Origin: Escherichia phage BEBK14
Sequence record: MN158214.1
Length of the DNA stretch: 50,853 bases
Strand: one strand, 5' to 3'
The notes beneath the pieces are model-generated. The model did not search any database. It was given only the letters and a program-made list of their open reading frames with translations, and was not told the origin of the DNA. Both the position numbers and the translations under genes were made by a program. Positions within the stretch are counted from its first letter, which is position 1; every line of letters starts with the position of its first letter. This document shows positions 2,304 to 50,191 of the stretch, piece by piece.

Positions 2304-3005
2304 TTAACTCCGCTTTCTTGCCCGACGCTCTGCCACGGAAGGGCAAATGTCGCTGATTTTAACGTATCGCGTTTTCTGATGCTCGCCTTCTTTCAGTTCA
2401 CGCATGATGAAAATAACGCTTCCTTTGTTGTTGCCCTGTACTGGTTTACCTGTAAGTGCGGAAGTAAACGCCAGGCGTCCGGTGCGTGAATATTCTGTTC
2501 CATCCTCTTTGTAAACTTCTCCAGTGATCCAGATTATTTCCGCCGCGTGCTGTTGCGCTTCATAAAACCATCCTGTTGATGTGTCGCATGGTAAAAGCAT
2601 GTCGATCTGGTTGTTGTGCTCCATCTGCTCAATCGCTTTCTTAACGAATGGCGTGATGTTGCTGTATGGTGGATTAAGCCAGATGTGCTTATTGCTACCC
2701 CACCAACGCTTTAAGCAATTCGTTTCCTTGCTGTAGAATTTTTCGCATACAGCATTATCTTCGCTTGCTGCCGCGTCGATGTCATAATCACCATATTCGC
2801 TTTCCATCCATGCGACAAGCTCTGATGGCGTAGACCATAAATCGCGCACAACGTCCGGCGTATTGCTTCCGTTATATCGGTTGCCAGTCACTTTGAAATA
2901 TTGATTTGACTTAACTGCCTGGTAATGGCCTCCGGTCGCTAGGGCATTACCTACAAACGTTTCTCGTTCGATTTGTTCAAAGCTGATTTCAATTTCTTTC
3001 TTCAC
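2304..3005 (-). CDS. dam: DNA N6-adenine methyltransferase (phage Dam family)
   Basis: NPPY catalytic motif (WLNPPYSN) and overall resemblance to phage Dam-type MTases; apparent GTG start. Confidence 0.7.
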   Translation of the reverse strand: MKKEIEISFEQIERETFVGNALATGGHYQAVKSNQYFKVTGNRYNGSNTPDVVRDLWSTPSELVAWMESEYGDYDIDAAASEDNAVCEKFYSKETNCLKRWWGSNKHIWLNPPYSNITPFVKKAIEQMEHNNQIDMLLPCDTSTGWFYEAQQHAAEIIWITGEVYKEDGTEYSRTGRLAFTSALTGKPVQGNNKGSVIFIMRELKEGEHQKTRYVKISDICPSVAERRARKRS

Positions 3006-3081: not shown

Positions 3082-3497
3082 TTCAGCATGTAATCAACTG
3101 CGATCATGAATTGCTTGTAACCGTAGGTGACGGCAGCGAAGCCTCCAAGCTCACGCACGCGGCGCAAGAATGCTTTTTGCTCTTTGCTGACCGGAGAAGC
3201 CTTCCCCTTGCCGGACTTGTTGACGCGCTTCATTTCAATAGCCGCAAACGGGTAGCGGCCTTTTAATCCAATCAGGATGATGAAGTCACTCACACCCTTA
3301 ACGAGTCCGGCTTGCTGATCCATCATTGCAGTGGCGATTCCCTTGTCTCCTTCGTTTTTCGTATGCCAGGCCAGCAATTCAGGATGAGCATAAGTCACCC
3401 ATTGAAACGCACCTATCTGGTGCGATTCTTCTTTTAGTGTATCTGTTGGATCTCTTTCGTAAAACTCCAGATAGTCACCTTTATCAGTCATTGCCAT
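3078..3497 (-). CDS. VRR-NUC domain nuclease
   Basis: C-terminal segment resembling VRR-NUC (GKGKASPVSKEQKAFL...); immediately downstream of helicase as is typical. Confidence 0.5.
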   Translation of the reverse strand: MAMTDKGDYLEFYERDPTDTLKEESHQIGAFQWVTYAHPELLAWHTKNEGDKGIATAMMDQQAGLVKGVSDFIILIGLKGRYPFAAIEMKRVNKSGKGKASPVSKEQKAFLRRVRELGGFAAVTYGYKQFMIAVDYMLK

Positions 3498-5523
3498 AAT
3501 TAAACTCCTTCTTGTATAGATTATCTTCGCCCTTACTCGTCTTGCGGTGAGTTACCATCGACGGCTGCATGATGTGATTCGCATATTGCATGATTTTTCT
3601 TGCATTGCGATAGCTTGCCACCATGCCAGCAATACGGCGATCCGGTATATGCTTTAACGCGACTCTACGCCATTTATCCCTGCAAATCTGGCTTTCTGAT
3701 TCAGGGAAAAATATCTCTCGCGCCCTGAATGTGTCGATGCCGTCGGAAAGCTCATAATTGAAGATGATCCCTTTCTGATTTTTCGTCATGTCAACCGAGA
3801 AAGATTTTACCTGGAACCAGTCGTTTTTTGTGTAGTGCTTACCGCTTAACTTTTCGTTAGGGTCAATAAGCGACACATCGCAATGCCTGCACACCCTGGC
3901 CGCAATATCATTCTTAGTACCACAGCCGTGATGGATAACCTTTCTGGTGCGCTGGTCTATCCGATCCTCGCATATCTTGTATTTGAAAAACCATTCGCAT
4001 CTGTTTCCGTTTTCGTCTACGTGCATACAACGTCGAGCGTAATAGCTGTTTAACGTCTTGCATACAGGGCAAGGCTTCGGATCTTTTCCGTTTTTGAATC
4101 TCTTCTGATGCTGCGCCTGCTCCAGTATCGGATCGAAATAAAGCTCTCCTAACTCGTCCATCGTGCCGGAAAAGTCCAAAACAAGATGATCGTCTTTATG
4201 AAAGCCCTGCTCTTTGTGCCACTTTTTAAGCAGTCGCATACCGCGACCTAAAAGCTGAATCAACAAAGTTAGCGATCCAATCTTACGCAGAATAACTGAC
4301 GTATCCCAAAACGGCACGTTAACGCCAGTGGTTAGCGCCTGCACCTGGAAGATGTATTTTACTTTCCCCTCGTATGCTTCTTTCAGCCATTCTTTACGCT
4401 GATTGTCGCCAGTCTTGCCAGTGATGATCCGGTAAGTCGTGCCAGGAGGCAACGCTGCCGCCGCCTCTTTACAATGTCTTTCACCTGCACATGTCACCAA
4501 TACGCCGTTACGGTTTTTACATATTTCGTGCACCTTCTCCATGATGCGCTTAGTCATAGTGGCTTCTTCATGGATCTTCTGTTCCATTTTGCGAAGCGTT
4601 TTCGCGTCAAAATCTGCAACTCCGTCCTCGCTGGATGCCTCGAACTCTGACAGGTCATAACCGAGATCGCCAACGTCGCCAAAATTGGTTGGCACAACCG
4701 AACCGAATTTGATCAGATAGTTGGTATCTATGTTAGTAACCTGTTCTCGCCAAAATCCTTTCTGTTTTTTATCTTCAACCAGGATTGGAACCACGCCGCG
4801 AAATTCCGATCCAGTCATGCCAAATATACGCAATTCGTGACCGTATTCCTTCCTGCAACGACGCATCATTTCCATGATGATAACGGTGTACTGTGTCCTG
4901 CCTGTTCCTTCCATTGGCAAGCCATCTTCCCCAATCAGGAATTCATCACACTCATGGGCGTTCGTGATGTCGTAATCTGGATTCTTTACTTTCTCGCCCT
5001 TTTTTGTCGTCATTTGAATGAGCGATTCGTCATTCTCTATCGCGTCGGCAAGGTCTTCCCAATCCACCTGATGACACTCGTCAATCCCGATAACGTGCGG
5101 CGCGTAGTCTCCAAGTGACTTAAACAGGCCGTTAACTACAGTTCCCTCAGAACCAACAACAATAGGAAAGTATGCGCTTTTGGTTTTCAGTCCAGCACAA
5201 TAAATGGAATTTGGCACGCCGAGATTTGTGATCTCCTCTGAATCCTGATCCACAATTTCAGCCTGTCGCGCCAATACCATCATTTTCAAGCCCATTTTCC
5301 GGCATTGCGCCGCAACCATTGCAAACATCAATGTTTTGCCTGCTGATACTGATGCTTTAATAAAGAATGGATGCTGATAATTGCGCATACGCTTTGCGAT
5401 CTCAGTGTATGCAACAACCTGGTAAGGATATGGCACAATATCGCCAACCGTGAAACGCTCCTGTATTTTTCGGATCGTTTCTTCACCTAAAGCGGCTATC
5501 TGCTTTTCAATATTAGGAATCAT
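3484..5523 (-). CDS. SF2 DNA helicase with Zn-finger-like cysteine cluster
   Basis: Walker A (SVSAGKT), DECH box (GIDECHQ), C-terminal CxxC clusters. Confidence 0.75.
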   Translation of the reverse strand: MIPNIEKQIAALGEETIRKIQERFTVGDIVPYPYQVVAYTEIAKRMRNYQHPFFIKASVSAGKTLMFAMVAAQCRKMGLKMMVLARQAEIVDQDSEEITNLGVPNSIYCAGLKTKSAYFPIVVGSEGTVVNGLFKSLGDYAPHVIGIDECHQVDWEDLADAIENDESLIQMTTKKGEKVKNPDYDITNAHECDEFLIGEDGLPMEGTGRTQYTVIIMEMMRRCRKEYGHELRIFGMTGSEFRGVVPILVEDKKQKGFWREQVTNIDTNYLIKFGSVVPTNFGDVGDLGYDLSEFEASSEDGVADFDAKTLRKMEQKIHEEATMTKRIMEKVHEICKNRNGVLVTCAGERHCKEAAAALPPGTTYRIITGKTGDNQRKEWLKEAYEGKVKYIFQVQALTTGVNVPFWDTSVILRKIGSLTLLIQLLGRGMRLLKKWHKEQGFHKDDHLVLDFSGTMDELGELYFDPILEQAQHQKRFKNGKDPKPCPVCKTLNSYYARRCMHVDENGNRCEWFFKYKICEDRIDQRTRKVIHHGCGTKNDIAARVCRHCDVSLIDPNEKLSGKHYTKNDWFQVKSFSVDMTKNQKGIIFNYELSDGIDTFRAREIFFPESESQICRDKWRRVALKHIPDRRIAGMVASYRNARKIMQYANHIMQPSMVTHRKTSKGEDNLYKKEFNYGND

Positions 5524-6085: not shown

Positions 6086-6142
6086 AGTTAATTGCCTGGC
6101 GTGGTTTATCATTGCCAGGCTTTTTCTTGTATGAGGTTTACA

Positions 6143-7054
6143 ATGCACTACGACAAAGACGAAGTTTTACCGCGTATGCTTGGAATGTGGCAAACTGCAT
6201 TAATGAAACTATGCAATGCGCCTCAATCTTTCTTTAATGGCAAGCATCAACCGTGCCTGTATTGTGGTGGCAAAGATCGCGCTCGTTGGACTAACCAACT
6301 CGCAAAGAAAGGTGATGGCGGCAATATCTGCAACGTATGCGGTAACGATAGCGGGATCGGGTTGTTTATGCGATTGCGCGGGGAAAGCTATAGCGAAGCA
6401 ATTAACACGCTGGGCGACTGGCTCAATCTCGTTCCGGTCGAAGTGGTGGCAAAGGCTAACAAGATAGCGTCGCGCTCGTCAGGCTACAATTTCGGGAAGC
6501 AGGCCAGCCATGAATGCTGTGAAAGAGTAATGGCAAAGACGCTTAAATTTGATCGCACTCCTTTAAGCGTATTTGAAGGAATCTACCCGCCTGATGATGG
6601 TCATTACGATTGCGGCGTTAAGGATGGGCGATACATTCACGCGCTTCCGTGCCGACTTGTTCACGAAGACGGCGTGGATGATGAGATGTGCAATATTCTC
6701 TTTATCACCGAGGAAGGCGATAAATCATTTCTGGCAAAGGATTACACGCGCGGATCGGTTGTTGTAACTGGTAGCACAGATAAGACGATCTATTTGTGCA
6801 CTGACTGGGTAAATGCTCAGCATGTGCACCTTGCGACGGGGCAAGAAGTATGGACGTGCTACAATAACTACAATCTTGAGATGGTTGCCCACAGATACAA
6901 AGGAAATCGAAAGATGCGCGTCGTATGCCATAAAGATGATCGGGATGTAATAATCGCCGCCGATGAAAGAAACCTTGATGTTATGCTGCCGATTGGTGGA
7001 AACTTCAAAAATGGCATTGAGAAAAAACTTTACAAGCCTGAATCGCTTTTATAA
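6143..7054 (+). CDS. DNA primase (primase Zn-ribbon + Toprim-like)
   Basis: PCLYCGGKDRARWT...CNVCGN zinc ribbon typical of P4/T7-type primases; downstream acidic Toprim-like motifs; GAGG RBS before ATG 6143. Confidence 0.6.
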   Translation: MHYDKDEVLPRMLGMWQTALMKLCNAPQSFFNGKHQPCLYCGGKDRARWTNQLAKKGDGGNICNVCGNDSGIGLFMRLRGESYSEAINTLGDWLNLVPVEVVAKANKIASRSSGYNFGKQASHECCERVMAKTLKFDRTPLSVFEGIYPPDDGHYDCGVKDGRYIHALPCRLVHEDGVDDEMCNILFITEEGDKSFLAKDYTRGSVVVTGSTDKTIYLCTDWVNAQHVHLATGQEVWTCYNNYNLEMVAHRYKGNRKMRVVCHKDDRDVIIAADERNLDVMLPIGGNFKNGIEKKLYKPESLL

Positions 7055-10163: not shown

Positions 10164-10610
10164 TCAGAATGGAATGTCGTCGTCAAAATTCATTGGCGGC
10201 TGATTGCTTTTCTGTGGTTGCTGGCGAGGATGCTGCTGTTGCGGTTGCCCCCATCCACCTTGATTCTGCTGTTGCTGCTGTCCTTCGGTGCGCTGGCTGA
10301 ATACCAGTCGTGGTTGTTCCATCTGCAACGTTACGTAGTTGTTACCGTTATGCTCGCGCTGGTTGATGCGTAGAACTTCCGCAGAGATGGAAACGACTTT
10401 ACCAACCTGCAACGCGTTATCATACCACTGACGCATTGCATCGCTTGATGCGAAGAACGTTGCGCTATAGTTTGAATATATCCGTTCACCACTCTGTTTG
10501 TCTTTAATAGACTCCGACAATTCCACAATATACATCTTGTAAGCGCCGGAGTTGCTTTGTCCTTCTTTTGTGTATGGCTCTTTTCGGATCGTTCCTGTGA
10601 CTACGTGCAT
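10164..10610 (-). CDS. ssb: single-stranded DNA-binding protein
   Basis: OB-fold-like N-terminus, Gln/Gly-rich linker and acidic C-terminal tail DDDIPF; AGGAG RBS before ATG at 10610. Confidence 0.75.
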   Translation of the reverse strand: MHVVTGTIRKEPYTKEGQSNSGAYKMYIVELSESIKDKQSGERIYSNYSATFFASSDAMRQWYDNALQVGKVVSISAEVLRINQREHNGNNYVTLQMEQPRLVFSQRTEGQQQQQNQGGWGQPQQQHPRQQPQKSNQPPMNFDDDIPF

Positions 10611-10631
10611 TTTGTTTTCTCCTATGAAAAT

Positions 10632-10647
10632 GGGGCGCAAGCGCCCC
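10632..10647 (-). terminator. hairpin, terminator candidate between Erf and SSB
   Basis: GGGGCGCAAGCGCCCC followed by T-rich tract on minus strand. Confidence 0.45.
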
Positions 10648-10651
10648 GTTT

Positions 10652-11305
10652 TTATTCAAAATCGGTGATGTTAGCCGATTGTACTTGCTCAGGTTTTGCG
10701 GTGTCAACGGAATCACTTGCCAGATTCTTTTTCGGTTGCGCTGGATTAAAACCGCGAGCGCCGCAGATTTCGATTTCTGCTTTTCGTTTCTCGTAGTGTT
10801 CCTTAACGACCTGTTTACTTGCTGGATCGCTTGCGCTCCATGCTTTCTTGAATGTTTCCTGCAATTCAGGCACTGACTCGCATTTATCAAGATCACGTTT
10901 CCAGTCGTTTGCAGACTTAACAGCGATTTGCGCATCATCGTCAGCCTGGCTTAAACCGAACGCTGCCGCCGCAGAATAGCGCCTACCGTATGTAAAAGCA
11001 GATCCTACACCTTGCGGATCATTCTTCACGATTGGGATGTCAAAGAAATATTTCACCCACTGACCTGATGTGTGCATTACTGTTGTTTCGACTCGCAGCG
11101 TGTTATTTTCGATGCGGCTGCCGTCCTGCATTAGCATTAGGTCGTTATCCATCAACGCTGGAGTTATTGCATCAAGTACAGCGTCAAGTGTGGCGTAACG
11201 GTTTTTCAGATGGCTGTTTTGTCGGTCTTTTTTAACCTTCACAAACATTGAACGCGCTTTGTGTAGCGCCGGAAGTACAAGATCGAATTTCTCTGATAGC
11301 TGCAT
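10652..11305 (-). CDS. erf: Erf-family single-strand annealing protein
   Basis: resemblance to Erf recombinases ([12 protein letters not shown]...); adjacent to SSB and exonuclease. Confidence 0.6.
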
Positions 11306-11381: not shown

Positions 11382-12443
11382 TTAAATCAGATACTGCTTG
11401 AACTGTCGGCGCACAAATTCAGGCGTATCCAAGCAAACTTCCGGCTCACCGTTTGCATACGCAGGCCATACGTCATGATGCTGGCACATAGCAAACTGTT
11501 GGATCACGCTAACATACTGGACTCGGCCTATCTTCAATTGCTCGCTGTTCATGCGGAAAGCCAACGGCAAATAAGGCTCTTTCTTCTCCTGGGCTAACAG
11601 GCGCATAACTACAGGGCGCTTCTCGTCTGGATATGCCTTCCTGAATAAATCATGTTGCAGCGCCATTTTCAGATAATAGCCGTGGTTGTAAGCCAGTCGC
11701 ATAAACTCCATCGGATTTGCGCTCATTGTGGTTTTGTAGTCAGTTATAACAACCGCTTCTGGATAGATAATATCGCGGCAAATTGGCTGACCTTTTTCGT
11801 CATAACCATCAATTAGCGTGGCGGTGACGTTTTTCACTACGTCAACGTGATCACATCGAACTTTAACTTTTACGCCGTTGATTTCGCCGAATAACGACAA
11901 TTCACGCTGTGCCGTCGGGCTGTTCATGCAGGCGTTATGTTCCGGTATGGATTCCAGAACCTGGCGCATTGCCACGCAAGCATCGTAATCTTTCGCGTCG
12001 ATTAACTGTACGCCGTCGGCTCTGGCCTGGCTTTCTGCGATCATGTCGATTAACCACATGATGTTAAGGTCTTCGCCACAATCAACCATCATTTTGATAA
12101 GGTCGGGGTAAGCCTTTCCGCTTGTCCCTTTCAGGCCAAAAGATTTCAGCTTTGCAGCCAATGCCGTTTGGCTTGTGATCAACTCTTTGAAGTCTTCCGG
12201 CGCTGGCGCACGGCGGTAAGTTTTATCAAATAGCTCCTTGCTTTCGAAGTTGGTATGCGACTGCGTACCGAAAACGAGCGCCTTGCTCTTATCGTCGCGC
12301 GGCTTGAACTTCCACGCAGCAGGGCAAGTGCTGTAAATCTCTGCCAGACTTGAACCGCTAACATATTCAGCCGTCCATGCTTCTGGATCGTGATAAAGCT
12401 CGTTGCTCATTTCTGCGCTGGTGTAAGCCATAAATTTATTCAT
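11382..12443 (-). CDS. putative recombination exonuclease
   Basis: 353-aa ORF in recombination module next to Erf; GAGGG RBS; family assignment is inferred from context. Confidence 0.4.
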   Translation of the reverse strand: MNKFMAYTSAEMSNELYHDPEAWTAEYVSGSSLAEIYSTCPAAWKFKPRDDKSKALVFGTQSHTNFESKELFDKTYRRAPAPEDFKELITSQTALAAKLKSFGLKGTSGKAYPDLIKMMVDCGEDLNIMWLIDMIAESQARADGVQLIDAKDYDACVAMRQVLESIPEHNACMNSPTAQRELSLFGEINGVKVKVRCDHVDVVKNVTATLIDGYDEKGQPICRDIIYPEAVVITDYKTTMSANPMEFMRLAYNHGYYLKMALQHDLFRKAYPDEKRPVVMRLLAQEKKEPYLPLAFRMNSEQLKIGRVQYVSVIQQFAMCQHHDVWPAYANGEPEVCLDTPEFVRRQFKQYLI

Positions 12444-42990: not shown

Positions 42991-43021
42991 TGTCATTCCT
43001 CCTGTTGGTCAGTTGCAGGCC

Positions 43022-43430
43022 ATTATAAGTGCTATTTTATGCGTGTCAATGTTTATTTTGTCCGTATAACGTTCGCGTCCTGTTCGCGTTGCCGAAGTTT
43101 TGAGAGAATCACTACATAACCACATGATTTGCAATAAGTTTTTACCGCTTGTTTTCTTTCTGTTCGCGCTGTTAGCGCAATATCGCAATAAAAGTATATA
43201 TACATACTCATTCCACCAGGCGCGCAACTATCCATATATATACCAACAAAGCGACACCGCAACCATCACATACCACACTAACAACGCTAACAAGAAATAA
43301 CACATAAATATATACATAAATAAATATTCTTTATTTTCAATGTATTATAAGGGATTTATTTTGTTTTTTGCGTTCGCAATACATTGAAAAACAGCGCGGA
43401 AACATGTCGCCCTGAAACGCGAACACGCAC
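43022..43430. other. AT-rich divergent control region B with GTTCGCG repeats (possible origin/operator region)
   Basis: GTTCGCG at 43071, 43082, 43162; CGCGAAC at 43418; ATACATAAATAAATATTCTTTATTTT block; no convincing ORF over ~720 bp. Confidence 0.55.
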
Positions 43431-43643
43431 GAACAAAATAAACAGCTTCTGTTTGCTGACGCCACCAGGACGAGGCGAGAGGGCAACTACTTTCTATACA
43501 CCCCGCCCCACATGATTAATCACATACGCAATCAATCGAAAAACCTGGTAAACGCATATCACACTAACCAATTTAACAGTTAAGCAACTTATTCCGATTA
43601 TTCTTTGAGCGTGGAATAACTGGAATAATGCACCAGGCATGGA

Positions 43644-43660
43644 ATAGCACTTTTTGTTAA
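43644..43660 (+). promoter_or_regulatory. 17-bp box copy
   Basis: TACATT 43682..43687, 21 bp downstream, then ACACACATCGAAAC; precedes first rightward early gene. Confidence 0.55.
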
Positions 43661-43722
43661 AACCGAATCATTCTGATCGGGTACATTACACACATCGAAA
43701 CAAACCGCTCAGGAGATAGCAA

Positions 43723-43995
43723 ATGAACATCAGTAAAACCACTTTCAATTTCGCTAAGCGTCACGGTCTGGATCTGACTGTTGAGAACTTAGGCGATGTT
43801 CTGCAACTCTGCATTTGGGAAGCAGATAACGATTGCGAGTGGCTTTGCTCTTATCGTATCAACTACGATTGCTTGACCTGGCACGGCAATATCTATCTGC
43901 CGCAAGAGGTGAAAGAAGAATTGCCAGCGACTATCAACAACGAAGTTTTCTTGCGCCGGGTGCTGAAATTTATCAGTGAGGAGATCAAGAAGTAA
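43723..43995 (+). CDS. hypothetical protein
   Basis: first gene of rightward early operon; GGAG RBS. Confidence 0.45.
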   Translation: MNISKTTFNFAKRHGLDLTVENLGDVLQLCIWEADNDCEWLCSYRINYDCLTWHGNIYLPQEVKEELPATINNEVFLRRVLKFISEEIKK

Positions 43996-44261
43996 TGGCG
44001 GTGATTACCGAAAATGATTTAGATCTGGCGGAGGCATTTTGCAGGGCGGCCAGGTCTAACCTGGATGTGACTACTAAATTTATTCCGGTGCGCCCACTCT
44101 TTTCATGTGCGCCCGTGAATAAACCGACTCGCGTAATGATCGTGATTGAAGGTGATGGCCTGTACGCTGAAAAGACTTTCCACATCAGCAACATTAAAGG
44201 CCGCGCTGATTTTATCAATGATGTTTGCTTATTGCAGGAGAAGAAAAAATGCTTAATGTGA
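43995..44261 (+). CDS. hypothetical protein
   Basis: TAATG coupling with upstream gene. Confidence 0.4.
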   Translation: MAVITENDLDLAEAFCRAARSNLDVTTKFIPVRPLFSCAPVNKPTRVMIVIEGDGLYAEKTFHISNIKGRADFINDVCLLQEKKKCLM

Positions 44262-44461
44262 TCAAGAAAGCCCGTGAGATGGGTATGGATGTTTCAATCT
44301 GCGACGCGTCCGCGCGTCACCCGTTAGCGCCGGAAAATATGGTTGTAGTCATTGTGCATAATCACCGCTATGAGTGCCGTGCGATGTTTGATAAGCATGA
44401 TAAAGAGGCGCAACGCTGTTTTATCAACGAAGTTTGCGATCTGTATGGGAGAATCAACTGA
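44249..44461 (+). CDS. hypothetical protein
   Basis: GGAG RBS before ATG 44249. Confidence 0.4.
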   Translation: MLNVIKKAREMGMDVSICDASARHPLAPENMVVVIVHNHRYECRAMFDKHDKEAQRCFINEVCDLYGRIN

Positions 44462-44727
44462 TGGCACGTATCAATGCACCTATTCCAGTAAAGCGCAAAG
44501 CACGTTTGCTCAATAAAGGATGTTACGCCCTGATGCCTGCATTTAAGGATCGCACCTTTCCGGTTATCGTTAACGTGTCTCACGTAAGCCGTAGCGGAAA
44601 CCTGGTATTCGTTAAAGGTGAAGATCTGGCGGCGCTTGGATTCTATGGCGGTGTTTACGGCGAACCGCTCGGCTTCTGGCTTGTAGATCCGTTAACTGGC
44701 GAGCGTGAAATCGAATTTCTGGACTAA
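44461..44727 (+). CDS. hypothetical protein
   Basis: stop TAA abuts box copy. Confidence 0.4.
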   Translation: MARINAPIPVKRKARLLNKGCYALMPAFKDRTFPVIVNVSHVSRSGNLVFVKGEDLAALGFYGGVYGEPLGFWLVDPLTGEREIEFLD

Positions 44728-44744
44728 ATAGCACTTTTTGTTAA
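44728..44744 (+). promoter_or_regulatory. 17-bp box copy
   Basis: TATATT 44766..44771, 21 bp downstream; abuts TAA stop of upstream gene. Confidence 0.5.
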
Positions 44745-44802
44745 AAACGATGTGCGCCTGAATGGTATATTACATCCATCGACAACAAACGAGGATTTAA
44801 AG

Positions 44803-45000
44803 ATGGAAAATCAGGTTGATGTTAAAGTTGTTAAGCGCGACAAGTCTCACGAAAAAGGTTTGTTTAAGAAAGGTGCTGAAATCACCATTGACCTTGATGA
44901 TATGGAGGCGTACCACTCAGGGCTAACTTGGAACGTGCGCAAATGTGAAAACGGCATGTTCAAGTTAAATGGCTTTGAAACATACATGGAGATCATCTAA
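44803..45000 (+). CDS. hypothetical protein
   Basis: GAGGA RBS before ATG 44803. Confidence 0.4.
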   Translation: MENQVDVKVVKRDKSHEKGLFKKGAEITIDLDDMEAYHSGLTWNVRKCENGMFKLNGFETYMEII

Positions 45001-45212
45001 TGGCAAAGCAATTAAAACTTAAATGCGTTGAAACTTACGACTCGGTTTGGCGTTTTACGCTAGGCAAAGAATACACTCTAAAGGGCGATCTCAAATATGA
45101 TCCGCATGTTATTTCTGATAACGGCCATCACCTTTATTTGATGGAAGACAACGACTCATATATTGGCGCTGGAGTGCAAGGTCATAAATTTAAGCTGGCA
45201 AATAAAAAATGA
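45000..45212 (+). CDS. hypothetical protein
   Basis: TAATG coupling. Confidence 0.4.
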   Translation: MAKQLKLKCVETYDSVWRFTLGKEYTLKGDLKYDPHVISDNGHHLYLMEDNDSYIGAGVQGHKFKLANKK

Positions 45213-45320
45213 GGCTGGTAATATTCCGCAACGCCTGGATGTTGGCTGTTGCAAATGACCATTACGGCGGCGGCGGTAAACGCGCCGCTCTACACTCTTA
45301 CTTTAACTGAGGAAAATATA

Positions 45321-45560
45321 ATGACTGCTAAATCAATCAAGGTTGAAAATATTCTTGCTGCTGTTAAGGCGCACCACCGCTTAATTGTTCGACTTGATAA
45401 AACAAGCGGAATCAGCCAATTAACCATCACTGAGGGTAAAGGCGGTTACACTGTTGGCATTCATCCAGGCGGCAAGCTGCGAAAATTCAGCGAGGCCGGA
45501 TTAAAAGAAATGCTGAATGAATACTCTTTTTACATTCAAAGTTGGAAGGATGCAAAATAA
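45321..45560 (+). CDS. hypothetical protein
   Basis: GAGGAA RBS before ATG 45321. Confidence 0.4.
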   Translation: MTAKSIKVENILAAVKAHHRLIVRLDKTSGISQLTITEGKGGYTVGIHPGGKLRKFSEAGLKEMLNEYSFYIQSWKDAK

Positions 45561-45605
45561 TGCTCCACGGGCGCCATAATGCGCCCACAAATACAGGAAA
45601 CAACC

Positions 45606-45716
45606 ATGAATAAGTTTTTAGATATTACTTTTGCGTGCGTTTCTGGAAGCATTGGATTGGCGTTAATCGCTGCTGGCGCTGCTTTGATTTACATTTCTTT
45701 TGAGGTGATTTCATAA
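45606..45716 (+). CDS. hypothetical small membrane peptide (36 aa)
   Basis: AGGAAA RBS; single hydrophobic helix; TAATG coupling to next gene; below track cutoff. Confidence 0.25.
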   Translation: MNKFLDITFACVSGSIGLALIAAGAALIYISFEVIS

Positions 45717-45940
45717 TGAGTCAGGACGGATTTTTTGAACGCCTTCAAATGGCAGAAGATGCCGGACTAAATAAAGAGGCGGCGCTTGAAGTTGCATATA
45801 AGATTAAGACTCTTGATGAGGCGCTAGGTGATATGGATATGAATCTTGAATCAAGCGCAATATTTGCAGATCCCACTATGATTGTTAATGATTGTGGATG
45901 CGATTTCGATCCTAGCTGTCCTCGCTGTTTTCCGTTTTGA
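45716..45940 (+). CDS. hypothetical protein
   Basis: 74-aa acidic ORF. Confidence 0.35.
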   Translation: MSQDGFFERLQMAEDAGLNKEAALEVAYKIKTLDEALGDMDMNLESSAIFADPTMIVNDCGCDFDPSCPRCFPF

Positions 45941-45950
45941 GGTAATGACG

Positions 45951-46655
45951 ATGTATAAAGGTTTAATATTCTCCCTATTTGATGGGTCTGGTAAAGCCGT
46001 TAAAGATTGGGCTGATAATGGCTATAAGTGCATTTGCTTTAATGCTGACGGTGGCGATCACGGTGATTACCAGTCAGTGCGCATAAAGCATGAGAATATC
46101 GAATATGTTAACGTCTGGATTGACGATGCTTTTTATGTTAAGGCAATAAATAATGAGTGGGGCAATCCTGATTTTATTATGGCCTTCCCACCATGCACTG
46201 ACCTTGCAAATAGCGGATCTCGCCATTGGGCTAAAAAACGCCTTGAGAATCCATCGTTCCAGGATGATGCCGCCGACACTTGCAGAATCGCGGCTGATAT
46301 AGCTGATTATTTCGGTGTTCCTTACATGATCGAAAATCCGGTTGGCAAGTTGTCAACGTTATGGCGAAAGCCTGATTATACGTTCCATCCGTGCGATTAC
46401 GCTGGCTATCTGCCGGAAGATGATAAGCATCCAGACTTCCCTGATATTATTCCGGCGCGTGATTGCTACTTTAAGAAAACATGCCTTTGGACTGGAAACG
46501 GCTTTATCGTTCCACAGAGAAAACTGGTATTGCCAACCGAGAAGGATAACCCAGGCTGGGCTAAAACTGGTGGCAAATCATCCAGAACAAAGATGATACG
46601 CTCCCTCACTCCGCGAGGATTTGCTCGCGCCGTATTTGAGGCAAACTCAAAATAG
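45951..46655 (+). CDS. putative DNA (cytosine-5) methyltransferase-like protein
   Basis: motif I-like FSLFDGSG, PC motif (PPCTDL), ENV-like (IENPVG); short for a complete C5-MTase. Confidence 0.45.
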   Translation: MYKGLIFSLFDGSGKAVKDWADNGYKCICFNADGGDHGDYQSVRIKHENIEYVNVWIDDAFYVKAINNEWGNPDFIMAFPPCTDLANSGSRHWAKKRLENPSFQDDAADTCRIAADIADYFGVPYMIENPVGKLSTLWRKPDYTFHPCDYAGYLPEDDKHPDFPDIIPARDCYFKKTCLWTGNGFIVPQRKLVLPTEKDNPGWAKTGGKSSRTKMIRSLTPRGFARAVFEANSK

Positions 46656-46668
46656 CACTTTTTGTTAA
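46652..46668 (+). promoter_or_regulatory. 17-bp box copy (extended form)
   Basis: contains TAG stop of MTase-like gene; hairpin 46672..46690, CATAAT, GTTTCAACGAAAAC. Confidence 0.55.
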
Positions 46669-46727
46669 AACGCCCGACCTTGAGTCGGGCATAATGCGTT
46701 TCAACGAAAACAACTGGAGAAAATCAA

Positions 46728-47114
46728 ATGAAAGTTATCCGCAATTCCGACAACAAATTGATGAACGGTCGCTATAAAACTGTTTACACAAAAGTAGCTG
46801 GCAGCGACGACGTGATCGAGATGGAGGAATTTCAGGTTAAGGCGCTGGCTAAGGGCGCGAAGTGGGAATCAGCCAACCAGGACGAATACCGCACTATCAA
46901 GGCAAAGACGATTCTATGTACGTTTGTTGATCACCGGATGGCAACCAAAAAAAGTTTTAAAGCTGGAAAGCGTTACCAGGTCGAACAGGGTCGCGCTCTT
47001 GGGGCAGTTGCTGGTTACGTCTTCGATGAGGACGGCGACCGATGGACGCTCTACCGCGAGGAGGTCGGATTCTCTGCTGGTTACTCTTATCTTTTTGAGG
47101 CCAAATATTCATGA
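46728..47114 (+). CDS. hypothetical protein
   Basis: preceded by extended box element. Confidence 0.45.
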   Translation: MKVIRNSDNKLMNGRYKTVYTKVAGSDDVIEMEEFQVKALAKGAKWESANQDEYRTIKAKTILCTFVDHRMATKKSFKAGKRYQVEQGRALGAVAGYVFDEDGDRWTLYREEVGFSAGYSYLFEAKYS

Positions 47115-47332
47115 TCCGCAGTGAATACCGATATAAAGTAACTCACGCCACAACTGCAACTTTCAAGCCTGGCGATATTGTCAGGCCAATAAAGAGAACT
47201 GCGGAAGGTTGGCTGATTGGGTATTCATATCACAAGTCGCTTTACTTCACTTTTAAGGATGATGTAACCGGAGAATGCTACAGCGACCGCCAGCCGGATC
47301 GCCTACTGGTTGCAATCGAGCGGATCAAATAG
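47111..47332 (+). CDS. hypothetical protein
   Basis: ATGA coupling; stop TAG inside box copy. Confidence 0.4.
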   Translation: MIRSEYRYKVTHATTATFKPGDIVRPIKRTAEGWLIGYSYHKSLYFTFKDDVTGECYSDRQPDRLLVAIERIK

Positions 47333-47345
47333 CACTTTTTGACAA
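47329..47345 (+). promoter_or_regulatory. 17-bp box copy (variant TTGACAA)
   Basis: contains TAG stop; TTGACA within box, TAACAT 47367..47372, 21 bp downstream. Confidence 0.5.
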
Positions 47346-47399
47346 ATAAGGGTAGTATTGGTGCGGTAACATACACTGCACCAAATAGGAGTCGATTTA

Positions 47400-48983
47400 A
47401 TGAATTTTTCATTTGAAACAAGTCAGTTATCACCGAAACAAATCATTGAAACCGCCGAATCTCAAGGTATTTCCCCTGTTCGTGTATCCATTCAGGCCAA
47501 CGGATACCGCCAATCTTCAAGCTATTGGGGTCAGGTGGAAGATATTAACGGCGGTAACGACCGCTACCCTGTCATTTCACTTGGGAATGATGTTGATGTA
47601 GTTGGTAAGCTGGCGCGCAATCTTGCGAGATCTGTTCAATTCCCTGAATCATCGGCCTACATGCACTTTATCGGATGTATTTCTGCCGCTATGCTTGGTC
47701 GATTCACAGTTGACTACCACGGAACAGATCAGCCGACCGCGCTTTACGTTGTGACAAGCCAGCCTCCGTCGGCAGGTAAATCCGCGATTAACAGTCTGGC
47801 TATTGCTCCTATGGTTGCAGAGGTTGATCGCATCAACGAGCAACGCAAGAAAGATCGAAAAAAGATACAGGCAAAACTTGCCGGACTACTAAAGGAGATG
47901 AAAAGCGAACGCTCCGGCGCAGATATGGAGATTCTATATCAAGAAAAAGAAGATCTGGAAGAAAAACTAAGCAAACTTTGCGATGTTGTTTTCCCTGTTT
48001 CCGACACAACGCCTGAGGGATTGGCAAAGATAAATAACAGGCAAGGCAACTTCGCGGTTATTTCTGATGAAGCAACCAGTATTAACAGTCTGCTTGGTCT
48101 GACTTACGCTAATAGCGAGCGCAAAACTAACAGCGAACTTGTGTTAAAAGCATGGGATCACGGCCATGTTTCTATCGCCCGTTCTAATGCAGACAATAAC
48201 ATGAGTTTTTTTGCGCTTGGATGTATGAGTGTTATCGCCCAGGATGAAACCATTAATGGCATCATGGATGCAGGATCTCGTGGCATCGGTGTAAGCGAGC
48301 GTTTTCTACTGGTGCGCGAACAGCCGTTAATCGGTACGCGTGTATTTGTGGATGAGAATGGTGATTCAACTTACGAACCAGTAGACGGTGAATTGAAAGC
48401 GCAATACTTTCAGTTGGTGCATAACATTATGAGCGAAATTAACGTTTCTCTGAAAGTTAGCCGTTCTGCAATGCGCGTGCTGAACATTGCACGCCAGGAT
48501 ATGGAACCGCATCTTGCCGACGGCGGAAAGTATTCGCATACGATGCTACGCGGTGCGCTGGGTAAAATGGATAAGCAGGTGATCCGCATTGCTGCCGTTC
48601 TGCATGTGATACGCAATTGGTTTAATCCTGCTGGATACCCGCAAAAGTCTAGAGAGATTGACGTTGACACGATGCAAGAAGCCTTGCTGATGTTCCATGA
48701 ATTGAGCAAAACGTATATCAGCGCGGCGAACGCGTCAGGCTATGCTGGTGATGATGCCGAGATGTCAAAACTGATTGAGTTAATCACCCGCCACGGTAAG
48801 GCAAATAAAGGCGTATTGAATGTCCGCGCTTTGTATGAGGCAGCACGCAAGGTAAAACCTTTCCTGGGGCAAGCTGGCGTGATGAAGCGCATAGAATCGC
48901 AACTGCTTCCGATGCTTGAGCAAAAAAACTACGTTTGTGTTATTAATGGTGTTATTTTTGTGAATCCTGTGTTAATGGGGTAA
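47400..48983 (+). CDS. P-loop NTPase, DUF3987/YfjI-like
   Basis: Walker A-like QPPSAGKS and Walker B-like VISDE; 527 aa. Confidence 0.45.
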   Translation: MNFSFETSQLSPKQIIETAESQGISPVRVSIQANGYRQSSSYWGQVEDINGGNDRYPVISLGNDVDVVGKLARNLARSVQFPESSAYMHFIGCISAAMLGRFTVDYHGTDQPTALYVVTSQPPSAGKSAINSLAIAPMVAEVDRINEQRKKDRKKIQAKLAGLLKEMKSERSGADMEILYQEKEDLEEKLSKLCDVVFPVSDTTPEGLAKINNRQGNFAVISDEATSINSLLGLTYANSERKTNSELVLKAWDHGHVSIARSNADNNMSFFALGCMSVIAQDETINGIMDAGSRGIGVSERFLLVREQPLIGTRVFVDENGDSTYEPVDGELKAQYFQLVHNIMSEINVSLKVSRSAMRVLNIARQDMEPHLADGGKYSHTMLRGALGKMDKQVIRIAAVLHVIRNWFNPAGYPQKSREIDVDTMQEALLMFHELSKTYISAANASGYAGDDAEMSKLIELITRHGKANKGVLNVRALYEAARKVKPFLGQAGVMKRIESQLLPMLEQKNYVCVINGVIFVNPVLMG

Positions 48984-49378
48984 TGATGTTCATTCTGGAT
49001 CTCTACAGATGGTGTGAGTCTTACGACTGGTTTACTCGTCAGCACATTGCAAAATTTATCTATCAGCACAGAGAATGTGAACGCCTGGCGAAGCAGGCCG
49101 GATTCACCCCGCGCATGTTCGCTTCCATGCTATCGAAAGAGTTTTGCGCAAGAATGATGGGCGCTGGTTATCTGGATGGCGTTGAAGGTAGATTTTGGTG
49201 CATTGACGGATCTGCCCGTAGGCCGTTCGGATTCGAATTTTACACCTTTGAGGGAATGCAAAATGAATGGATAAGGGATATGGCACGGATAGGAGAAATG
49301 AGTGATGATGAACTCTTTGGAGCAAAGTCTAATAGACAAGATATTGAAATTTTGCGCCGTAAATTCAATATCACATGA
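48983..49378 (+). CDS. hypothetical protein
   Basis: 131-aa ORF coupled to upstream gene. Confidence 0.4.
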   Translation: MMFILDLYRWCESYDWFTRQHIAKFIYQHRECERLAKQAGFTPRMFASMLSKEFCARMMGAGYLDGVEGRFWCIDGSARRPFGFEFYTFEGMQNEWIRDMARIGEMSDDELFGAKSNRQDIEILRRKFNIT

Positions 49379-49499
49379 TGATTTCATTCATGCGTTACTT
49401 ACGCTGCTTTTATCGGATATGCGTGCCTTTGACACTTCCGAACACAATTTATGTGATGATGATGGTGTCTTGCTGGTTACGGTGAAGCGGATGGAATAG
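49305..49499 (+). CDS. hypothetical protein
   Basis: AGGAGA RBS; stop TAG inside box copy. Confidence 0.3.
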   Translation: MMNSLEQSLIDKILKFCAVNSISHDDFIHALLTLLLSDMRAFDTSEHNLCDDDGVLLVTVKRME

Positions 49500-49512
49500 C
49501 ACTTTTTGTTAA
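49496..49512 (+). promoter_or_regulatory. 17-bp box copy (extended form)
   Basis: contains TAG stop; hairpin 49516..49534, TATATT, GTTTCATCGAAACGAA. Confidence 0.55.
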
Positions 49513-49571
49513 AACGCCCGGCTTATAGTCGGGTATATTTGTTTCATCGAAACGAATATGAGGAAAACAAA

Positions 49572-49790
49572 ATGAGCAACAAATTTTTTACCGTGGCGCT
49601 GATTATCAAACATGAAAACGGCACTACCACTGAGATCCCTACAAAATTCCCAGCCGACTCCTGGACTCACGAGCAAGCTGTCGGATATGTTGAGGAAATG
49701 GCTAAACGCGTAATGGCTGGTCATTATGATATTGAATTTCAGGAAAACCAGAAGCTAACAAATCATTCACACGAATGGCCTGATGCTTAA
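49572..49790 (+). CDS. hypothetical protein
   Basis: GAGGAAA RBS; followed by terminator. Confidence 0.4.
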   Translation: MSNKFFTVALIIKHENGTTTEIPTKFPADSWTHEQAVGYVEEMAKRVMAGHYDIEFQENQKLTNHSHEWPDA

Positions 49791-49795
49791 AAATA

Positions 49796-49821
49796 AAGGA
49801 GGCTTTAAGCCTCCTTTTTCT
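49796..49821. terminator. rho-independent terminator between early operon and lysis cassette
   Basis: AAGGAGGCTTTAAGCCTCCTT + T5; near-identical stem to 119..141. Confidence 0.65.
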
Positions 49822-50191
49822 TTGTCCAGAAGTAGATAGCAAGCATTACGGCGAATGTGGCAAAACATACGATTATCGGGTCGTACCATCTGCCGTTATC
49901 ACCCTGCACAACCTGGATTTTTTCCGCATTGATGGTATTGGCCTGAATGGTTGATGCCTTAACCGTCTTCTTGCTGGATGTATCCACCTTTTCGACCTTC
50001 GATTCTTTAAAGGTGTTTTCCTGCTTGCTGCTGGAGTCTTTTTTTGCGGTAATACCAACGGCCTGCTTCACGTTCTCCGCGCCAGCCTGGGCGCTAATAT
50101 CTGGCTTACTTCCGGTCAGTAGGCCAACTGGACTTATAGCAGAACAGCCGGACAATAAAACCGCCAGTGCAATAGCTGTGATTCGTTTCAT
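49805..50191 (-). CDS. unimolecular spanin (lipoprotein with C-terminal TM helix)
   Basis: lipobox LLSGC at N-terminus plus C-terminal hydrophobic helix; follows endolysin. Confidence 0.6.
   Translation of the reverse strand: MKRITAIALAVLLSGCSAISPVGLLTGSKPDISAQAGAENVKQAVGITAKKDSSSKQENTFKESKVEKVDTSSKKTVKASTIQANTINAEKIQVVQGDNGRWYDPIIVCFATFAVMLAIYFWTKKKEA

What the first reader, a model, noticed from the sequence alone, without database searches (positions are those of the whole stretch)
47400..48983. Large DUF3987/YfjI-like P-loop protein in the early operon
The 527-aa protein has a Walker A-like QPPSAGKS and Walker B-like VISDE but no recognisable helicase or primase motifs beyond these. Proteins of this type occur in prophages and plasmids with unknown function and may participate in replication initiation or defence evasion.
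Basis: partly seen in the sequence, partly recalled or inferred. Interest (0 to 1): 0.45.

Follow-up and report, generated by a model that had tools for sequence, protein, structure and literature searches.

The report
T1-like phage MCM-type DNA helicase
The 527-residue protein is the well-conserved DUF3987 "DNA helicase" of T1-like coliphages, a distant relative of the MCM replication helicases that most likely unwinds the phage DNA for replication, so the finding is real but ordinary and already annotated.

Summary
The ORF is real: 47400..48983 (+), 527 aa, with QPPSAGKS and VISDE as described. The window is a T1-like (Drexlerviridae) coliphage, about 99% identical to phages WaterSpirit, MatMar and Jahat_MG145. 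The protein is 100% identical to a GenBank phage protein. Full-length homologues occur in 908 phage records, including T1 ST9 (59% identity), and are mostly annotated "DNA helicase".

Beyond Walker A and B, it carries invariant residues that I read as further AAA+ motifs: pore-hairpin R261, sensor-1 Q281, an MCM-like arginine finger SERF (R301), and K389.

Relatives are fused to DnaG-type or AEP primase domains or to the DnaB N-terminal domain. Other relatives sit directly beside the primase, SF2 helicase, exonuclease, Erf and SSB genes. A DUF3987 protein (AgaPH) was shown in 2025 to be an ATP-dependent 5'->3' helicase.

Best reading: the phage's replicative helicase, working with the phage primase and SSB and the host polymerase. 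There is no evidence for defence evasion. The family is already known and interest is low.

The parts
47387..47391 (+). Ribosome-binding site AGGAG, 8 nt upstream of the ATG
   Evidence: Sequence read directly
47400..48983 (+). CDS of the 527-aa DUF3987-family AAA+ helicase (orthologue of T1 ST9)
   Evidence: ORF. Pfam DUF3987 E 2.8e-40. PHROG 2373 'DNA helicase' E 6.6e-243. 59% identity to T1 ST9.
47400..47597 (+). N-terminal small helical module (aa 1-66: three short helices, then a loop). This part is replaced by a DnaB N-terminal domain in relative P0184.
   Evidence: AF2 secondary structure. Profile match to P0184 starts at position 59. P0184 domains.
47760..47783 (+). Deviant Walker A / P-loop QPPSAGKS (aa 121-128). 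K127 is invariant.
   Evidence: K127 in 136/136, Q121 in 132/136
47784..47975 (+). Long helical hairpin (aa 129-192) that extends the helix after the P-loop. Present across the family.
   Evidence: AF2 helices 125-167 and 173-192. Weak WWC1 helical-hairpin match. Few gaps in this stretch in the family alignment.
48057..48071 (+). Walker B strand VISDE (aa 220-224). E224 is invariant. D223 varies across the family.
   Evidence: Strand 218-222 in the model. E224 in 136/136, D223 in only 51/136.
48165..48212 (+). Beta-hairpin before sensor 1 (aa 256-271) with invariant R261. Inferred to be the DNA-contacting pore hairpin (pre-sensor-1 hairpin).
   Evidence: Strands 256-259 and 268-271. R261 in 136/136. 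The role is inferred by analogy with MCM.
48231..48248 (+). VIAQDE (aa 278-283), on and just after the sensor-1 strand. Q281 is the inferred sensor-1 residue.
   Evidence: Strand 274-280. Q281 in 135/136.
48294..48308 (+). SERFL (aa 299-303), which resembles the MCM 'SRFD' arginine-finger motif. R301 is invariant.
   Evidence: R301 in 136/136. It lies at the start of strand 302-306. The MCM motif is recalled from memory.
48546..48575 (+). LRGALGKMDK (aa 383-392) in the lid domain. Inferred sensor-2 region.
   Evidence: K389 in 136/136, R384 in 96/136. Helices 381-388 and 390-406.
48750..48980 (+). C-terminal winged-helix domain (aa 451-527)
48983..49378 (+). Translationally coupled 131-aa winged-helix protein (TAATG overlap). 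Orthologue of T1 ST10. Found only in Drexlerviridae-like phages.
49795..49817 (.). Bidirectional terminator-like hairpin closing the + strand module and the convergent lysis genes
   Evidence: I3
6092..7054 (+). Phage primase (zinc ribbon of the primase-helicase type). Presumed working partner.
   Evidence: Pfam Zn_Ribbon_Prim. Orthologues annotated as DNA primase. The primase lies beside the DUF3987 gene in relatives.
3484..5523 (-). SF2 helicase (ResIII + Helicase_C), the phage's second helicase. Co-inherited with the DUF3987 gene and the primase.
10164..10640 (-). ORF at the position of the gene annotated 'single-stranded DNA binding protein' in relatives. It sits in the Erf / exonuclease recombination module.
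   Evidence: Annotation of the syntenic gene in FritzSarasin. Erf and exonuclease neighbours. This ORF itself had no Pfam match.

Best explanation
The gene encodes a ring-forming AAA+ DNA helicase of the DUF3987 family, in the MCM-related 'superfamily 6' branch. It most likely serves as the replicative helicase of this T1-like phage. Proposed mechanism: subunits assemble into a ring. ATP binds at subunit interfaces through the P-loop (K127), the Walker B glutamate (E224) and sensor-1 Q281 of one subunit, and through arginine finger R301 (and possibly K389/R384) of the neighbouring subunit. ATP hydrolysis moves the R261 beta-hairpins along single-stranded DNA in the central channel and unwinds the duplex. 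The C-terminal winged helix, and possibly the translationally coupled 131-aa winged-helix protein, bind DNA or partner proteins. The helicase works with the phage's own primase and SSB. Because the phage encodes no DNA polymerase, it must work with the host polymerase. Shown here: family membership, the predicted fold, residue conservation, fusions with primase domains, and gene neighbourhood. Inferred: ring formation, the role assigned to each residue other than Walker A/B, polarity (5'->3' if it behaves like AgaPH), and that this protein rather than the SF2 helicase drives the fork.
For: Pfam DUF3987 at 139 bits. PHROG 2373 'DNA helicase', E 6.6e-243, full length.

K127, E224, R261, R301 and K389 are invariant and Q281 is 135/136 across 136 representatives, each from a different 50%-identity cluster.

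Fusion proteins: Zn_ribbon_DnaG + DUF3987 (P0150), DnaB N-terminal domain + DUF3987 (P0184), AEP BT4734-like_N + DUF3987 (P0255), NrS-1 polymerase HBD + DUF3987 (P0265).

In 35-37% identical relatives, the gene lies immediately beside the primase, SF2 helicase, exonuclease, Erf and SSB genes.

The window has a primase, an SSB-position ORF, Erf and an exonuclease. The TLS paper states that TLS and T1 have no apparent DNA polymerase gene (PMC11447400).

Literature: DUF3987 was predicted to be an SF6 replicative helicase with a C-terminal wHTH (PMC4889955). The DUF3987 protein AgaPH is an oligomeric, ATP/dATP-dependent 5'->3' helicase that is abolished by Walker A/B mutations (PMC11724360).
Against: No T1-like DUF3987 protein has been tested biochemically or genetically in anything I could read.

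In this phage the gene is about 8 kb from the primase, in a separate module of small unknown genes. The SF2 helicase, not this gene, sits beside the primase.

Plain HMM searches do not connect the protein to Pfam MCM or to any solved structure by sequence.

The Walker B aspartate is not conserved in the family.

The MCM N-terminal OB/zinc domain is absent.

MCM and BcMCM move 3'->5', whereas AgaPH moves 5'->3', so the polarity here is open.
Confidence: 0.62

Rival explanations
1. It is a recombination or repair motor (a branch-migration helicase like ComM or RuvB) that serves recombination-dependent concatemer formation. The SF2 helicase next to the primase is the fork helicase.
Confidence: 0.15
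2. It is an origin-recognising initiator or loader ATPase (ORC/Cdc6- or DnaC-like in role). It opens the origin through its winged helix, perhaps with the coupled 131-aa winged-helix protein, and recruits the host DnaB instead of unwinding at the fork itself.
For: The C-terminal winged helix resembles ORC/Cdc6 winged helices. The gene is translationally coupled to a small winged-helix protein. AAA+ initiators share the core fold.
Against: The AAA+ core aligns best with MCM over about 250 residues, whereas ORC/Cdc6 hits cover only the roughly 85-residue winged helix. The beta-hairpin with invariant R261 is, as I recall, a feature of translocases. A family member unwinds DNA. No iterons were found in or around the gene.
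Confidence: 0.12
3. It is an ATPase that acts in host takeover or defence evasion (for example a MoxR-like remodelling ATPase) rather than on DNA.
Against: No PADLOC match. The defence-escape studies I read do not mention this gene. Primase fusions and replication-gene neighbourhoods point to DNA replication.
Confidence: 0.04

Closest known systems
AgaPH, the PriCT-DUF3987 helicase of a Seonamhaeicola mobile element (PMC11724360)
   Same: It has the same Pfam domain (DUF3987) with Walker A and B motifs and a small C-terminal domain. It is the only family member I found with demonstrated activity: oligomeric, ATP/dATP-dependent, 5'->3' unwinding, and binding to its primase.
   Different: AgaPH has an N-terminal PriCT domain and pairs with an AEP primase-polymerase encoded next to it. 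The phage protein has a short helical N-terminus, pairs (presumably) with a zinc-ribbon primase encoded about 8 kb away, and belongs to a virulent phage without its own polymerase. I did not have the AgaPH sequence, so identity was not measured.
T1 ST9 and TLS 'yfiJ' DNA helicase, and PHROG 2373
   Same: These are direct orthologues: 59% identity to T1 ST9 and 79.6% to TLS, with the same length and the same downstream ST10-like gene.
   Different: There is no functional difference I could see. None of these has been characterised experimentally.
Archaeal and eukaryotic MCM replicative helicases (superfamily 6)
   Different: Sequence identity is only 10-16%. There is no Pfam MCM match and no OB-fold/zinc N-terminal domain. 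A long helical hairpin follows the P-loop. The Walker A motif starts with Q-P-P. MCM moves 3'->5', whereas the one tested DUF3987 protein moves 5'->3'.
Prophage and island MCM-like helicases: Bacillus cereus BcMCM and SCCmec Cch (DUF927)
   Different: They belong to different Pfam families. BcMCM unwinds 3'->5'. They are structurally less similar to the phage protein than true MCMs are.
DnaB-type (SF4) phage helicases such as T7 gp4 and T4 gp41
   Same: They have the same presumed job: a ring helicase working with a zinc-ribbon/TOPRIM primase. One DUF3987 relative even carries the DnaB N-terminal domain.
   Different: They have a RecA fold, not an AAA+ fold. The protein has no DnaB_C match.

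Membership tests
DUF3987 (Pfam PF13148) | Match to the family HMM above the gathering score | tested here: met
   139.1 bits against a cut-off of 27, residues 82-430 on profile positions 3-349 of 364. All 23 aligned homologues also match.
DUF3987 (Pfam PF13148) | Conserved Walker A lysine and Walker B acidic residue | tested here: met
   K127 and E224 in 136/136 representatives. The Walker B aspartate is variable (51/136).
DUF3987 (Pfam PF13148) | [quoted passage not shown] | tested here: met
DUF3987 (Pfam PF13148) | Association with a primase, by fusion or by adjacent gene | tested here: met
   Fusions in relatives. Adjacent primase in relatives. In this window the primase exists but lies about 8 kb away.
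DUF3987 (Pfam PF13148) | ATP-dependent DNA unwinding and oligomerisation, as shown for AgaPH | not testable with these tools
   Needs purified protein. Known only for AgaPH.
MCM family proper (Pfam PF00493, superfamily 6 helicases) | AAA+ core most similar in structure to MCM | tested here: met
MCM family proper (Pfam PF00493, superfamily 6 helicases) | Sequence match to the MCM profile | tested here: not met
   No PF00493 match at E <= 1 for the protein or any of 22 homologues. No PDB match by sequence or profile.
MCM family proper (Pfam PF00493, superfamily 6 helicases) | N-terminal OB-fold and zinc-binding domain | tested here: not met
MCM family proper (Pfam PF00493, superfamily 6 helicases) | Arginine finger in an SRFD-type motif at the strand after sensor 1 | tested here: met
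   S299-E300-R301-F302 at the start of strand 302-306, with R301 in 136/136. The MCM motif itself is recalled from memory.
MCM family proper (Pfam PF00493, superfamily 6 helicases) | Hexamer with 3'->5' polarity | not testable with these tools
   The only tested DUF3987 protein moves 5'->3'.
DnaB-type SF4 helicase | RecA-fold DnaB C-terminal domain | tested here: not met
   No DnaB_C match. Structural hits are AAA+, not RecA-fold.
Helicase loader (DnaC, lambda P, T4 gp59 types) | Match to a loader family profile or fold | tested here: not met
   No such family in Pfam, PHROGs or NCBIfam. No loader among the listed structural hits.
Known anti-phage defence proteins | Match to a PADLOC model | tested here: not met
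   No match at E <= 0.1. PADLOC does not cover anti-defence proteins.

The most novel reading that the evidence does not exclude
T1-like phages may run a hybrid replisome that has never been described biochemically. In it, an MCM-clade AAA+ ring helicase moves 5'->3' like DnaB. It is brought to the origin by its own winged helix together with the translationally coupled 131-aa winged-helix protein. It is coupled to a bacterial-type zinc-ribbon primase and to the host Pol III holoenzyme. The family-wide helical hairpin after the P-loop would then be the docking arm for the primase or the host clamp loader.
Probability: 0.3. Interest if true: 0.45.

Novelty: already known. Interest (0 to 1): 0.15.

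Why it matters
It matters little as a discovery. The gene is a conserved, already named component of a very well-sampled phage family, and the function of its protein family has been predicted since 2016 and demonstrated for one member in 2025. It has modest value as a reminder that the replication machinery of T1-like phages is still uncharacterised experimentally. That machinery comprises an MCM-type helicase, an SF2 helicase and a zinc-ribbon primase, with no polymerase. The annotation 'hypothetical protein' in many records can safely be upgraded to 'DUF3987-family AAA+ DNA helicase'.

Tried and rejected
- NCBIfam gave no match.
- Sequence and profile searches of the PDB gave only chance-level hits.
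- PADLOC gave nothing for the helicase. It gave only a chance-level Csn2 hit for a neighbouring ORF.
- A relaxed Pfam scan of all 23 homologues did not recover MCM or any other AAA+ family. The MCM link therefore rests on predicted structure and on the published profile-profile result.
- A repeat search found no iterons or origin-like repeats in or next to the gene.
- The promoter and terminator scans were at background level. The exceptions were the terminator-like hairpin at 49795-49817 and one perfect promoter-like site at 43049-43022.
- Papers on defence-escape mutants of Drexlerviridae contain nothing about this gene.
- The supplement of PMC4889955, which might list T1, is not held.
- A search for old T1 genetics on host dnaB dependence found nothing usable.
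- I considered SF3 (P4 alpha-like), SF4 (DnaB-like) and loader identities and rejected them for lack of any profile or fold support.

Full report
**Observation**

The + strand carries an ORF from ATG 47400 to a TAA stop at 48981-48983, encoding 527 aa. An AGGAG ribosome-binding site lies 8 nt upstream of the start. The stop codon overlaps the ATG of the next ORF (TAATG). That ORF runs 48983..49378 and encodes 131 aa.

**What the window is**

Bases 46000-50000 are 99.1-99.4% identical to Escherichia phages WaterSpirit, MatMar and Jahat_MG145. They are about 80% identical to many Warwickvirus and other Tempevirinae phages of the family Drexlerviridae, the T1-like phages.

The protein is 100% identical to a GenBank protein of phages BEBK14 and BabyEgg. 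tblastn finds it in 921 phage records, 908 of them over at least 80% of its length. These are mostly Klebsiella, Escherichia, Salmonella and Shigella phages.

The T1 orthologue is ST9, at 59% identity. The downstream ORF corresponds to T1 ST10, at 50% identity. Records annotate the gene as 'DNA helicase', 'putative helicase', 'yfiJ: DNA helicase' (in TLS) or 'hypothetical protein'.

**Family assignment**

- Pfam: DUF3987 (PF13148), E 2.8e-40, 139 bits, residues 82-430.
- PHROGs: phrog_2373 'DNA helicase', E 6.6e-243, end to end.
- NCBIfam, PADLOC and sequence searches of the PDB: nothing significant.
- A profile of 23 homologues searched against 1.84 billion cluster representatives found 5751 relatives at E <= 1e-3 and 3275 at E <= 1e-10. 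The family is large.

**Structure**

An AlphaFold2 model built on the 23-sequence alignment is confident, with mean pLDDT 86.8 and pTM 0.82.

The model's order of elements is as follows:
- a small N-terminal helical module (residues 1-66)
- two helices, then strand 116-120 leading into the P-loop
- a very long helical hairpin (125-192)
- the Walker B strand (218-222)
- a beta-hairpin (256-271)
- the sensor-1 strand (274-280)
- strand 302-306
- a helical lid (330-445)
- the winged helix (451-527)

**Motifs**

I aligned the protein with 135 representatives, each from a different 50%-identity cluster. The following residues are identical in all 136 sequences: K127 (Walker A), E224 (Walker B), R261 (in the beta-hairpin), G297, R301 and K389. 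Q281 is identical in 135 of 136.

S299-E300-R301-F302 sits where MCM has its SRFD arginine finger. VIAQDE ends the sensor-1 strand. LRGxxGKxDK lies in the lid where sensor 2 is expected. The roles of R261, Q281, R301 and K389/R384 are my inference from their positions and from my memory of the MCM motifs.

Two oddities are worth noting. The first glycine of Walker A is Q121, which is conserved in 132 of 136 sequences. The Walker B aspartate D223 is not conserved: D in 51, A in 48 and S in 31 sequences.

**Evidence from relatives**

Longer family members are fusions:
- P0150: DnaG-type zinc ribbon + DUF6371 + DUF3987, matching almost the whole profile
- P0184: DnaB N-terminal domain + DUF3987
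- P0255: AEP BT4734-like N domain + DUF3987
- P0265: NrS-1 polymerase HBD + DUF3987

P0150 and P0184 are single called genes on their contigs.

In phage-like contigs that encode 35-37% identical homologues, the gene lies directly beside replication and recombination genes. In L005 the order is DUF3987, DnaG-type primase, SF2 helicase, DUF3799 exonuclease, all in one direction. In L006 and L007 it is followed by a small gene, a Zn_Ribbon_Prim primase and an SF2 helicase. L006, which extends further, continues with an exonuclease, Erf and SSB.

The same set of genes exists in this window:
- SF2 helicase, 3484..5523 (-)
- primase, 6092..7054 (+)
- an ORF at the position of the annotated SSB, 10164..10640 (-)
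- Erf, 10652..11305 (-)
- exonuclease, 11382..12443 (-)

Here, however, the DUF3987 gene has been separated from them. It sits in a + strand module of small genes (about 43995..49790). A terminator-like hairpin at 49795-49817 ends this module, facing the lysis genes.

**Literature**

- Kazlauskas et al. 2016 linked phage DUF3987 proteins to MCM by profile-profile comparison. They noted the association with primases and the C-terminal wHTH, and proposed that these proteins are replicative helicases (PMC4889955).
- Kazlauskas et al. 2018 listed DUF3987 among the helicase-like domains fused to AEP primases (PMC5862659).
- A 2025 paper purified a PriCT-DUF3987 protein, AgaPH. It is oligomeric and binds its primase-polymerase. 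It unwinds 5'-overhang and forked DNA (5'->3' polarity) with ATP or dATP, and it is inactivated by Walker A or B mutations (PMC11724360).
- The TLS paper notes that TLS and T1 have no apparent DNA polymerase gene and probably use host enzymes (PMC11447400).
- A prophage MCM-like protein, BcMCM, unwinds 3'->5' (PMC2715239).

**Best explanation**

The protein is a ring-forming AAA+ DNA helicase of the DUF3987 family, in the MCM-related branch. It is most likely the fork helicase of the phage, acting with the phage primase and SSB and the host polymerase.

I put about 0.85 on 'it is a DNA helicase' and about 0.6 on 'it is the replicative helicase'. The lower figure reflects two gaps. The phage has a second (SF2) helicase next to its primase, and no genetic or biochemical data for any T1-like orthologue were available to me.

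Rival readings, in order of likelihood:
- a recombination branch-migration motor
- an origin initiator or loader that recruits host DnaB
- a non-DNA ATPase used in host takeover (least likely)

Defence evasion has no support.

**Comparison with known families**

The protein is a member of DUF3987 by every feature I could test. It works like an MCM, but it is not a member of the MCM family proper. It has no MCM profile match and no OB/zinc N-terminal domain. It also has an extra helical hairpin after the P-loop.

**Novelty and verdict**

The finding is real but ordinary: a conserved, already annotated gene of a heavily sampled phage family. Its family function was predicted in 2016 and demonstrated for one member in 2025. 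Interest is about 0.15. The only open questions are experimental: polarity, partners, the division of labour with the SF2 helicase, and how the helicase is loaded.

**Side observations**

- The 128-aa ORF at 46728..47114, two genes upstream, is 72% identical to a 128-aa ORF at the same position in phage SECphi27. Among the ORFs of exactly 128 aa in the first 50 kb of that genome, it is the only one with an obvious ribosome-binding site. [quoted passage not shown] So this ORF is probably the orthologue of that trigger.

Noticed in passing
window 46728..47114 (+): This 128-aa ORF (phrog_2684, unknown function) is 72% identical to a syntenic 128-aa ORF of phage SECphi27 (record LT961732.1, 6629-7015). 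Among the ORFs of exactly 128 aa in the first 50 kb of that genome, it is the only one with an obvious ribosome-binding site. A preprint (10.1101/2022.08.27.505566) reports that an unnamed 128-aa SECphi27 protein triggers the Mokosh type I defence system, so this ORF is probably the orthologue of that trigger.
   Followed up: partly
window 48983..49378 (+): This 131-aa ORF overlaps the helicase stop codon (TAATG). It is the orthologue of T1 ST10 and is found only in Drexlerviridae-like phages. It is predicted with confidence (pLDDT 87.7) and has a MarR/ArsR-type winged helix. Some GenBank records call it 'YdbL', which looks like a transferred misnomer. It is a candidate DNA-binding partner of the helicase or a regulator.
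   Followed up: partly
window 48066..48068 (codon of D223) and family alignment: The Walker B aspartate is not conserved in the DUF3987 family (D 51, A 48, S 31 of 136), whereas the following glutamate is invariant. The first Walker A glycine is replaced by a conserved glutamine, Q121.
   Followed up: partly
window 47784..47975 (aa 129-192): A long two-helix hairpin extends the helix after the P-loop. It is present throughout the family, judging by the few alignment gaps there, and it gives a weak match to the WWC1 helical-hairpin family. Its role is unknown. I do not recall such a feature in MCM.
   Followed up: no
window 43000..43990: This is the divergent intergenic region between the - strand and + strand gene blocks. 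It holds a perfect sigma-70 consensus promoter-like site on the - strand (43049-43022), several short direct repeats (D1, D2, D7) and inverted repeats (I2, I4). It is a candidate early control region or origin.
   Followed up: no
window 45882..46655 (+): This ORF has no Pfam match at E <= 0.1 but matches PHROG 757 'DNA methyltransferase' at E 2.4e-85. Relatives annotate it as a Dcm-like C5 cytosine methyltransferase. The phage also carries a Dam methyltransferase at 2304..3005 (-).
   Followed up: no
phage collection hits: About 20 records named 'Campylobacter phage', with host Campylobacter jejuni, match this T1-like coliphage region at the DNA and protein level. These are probably mislabelled or contaminant T1-like phages.
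   Followed up: no
L005 611-4705; L006 8001-12743: In more distant relatives, the DUF3987 gene, the primase and the SF2 helicase are contiguous. In T1-like phages the DUF3987 gene has moved to a separate module about 8 kb from the other two. The three genes appear to be inherited as a set.
   Followed up: partly
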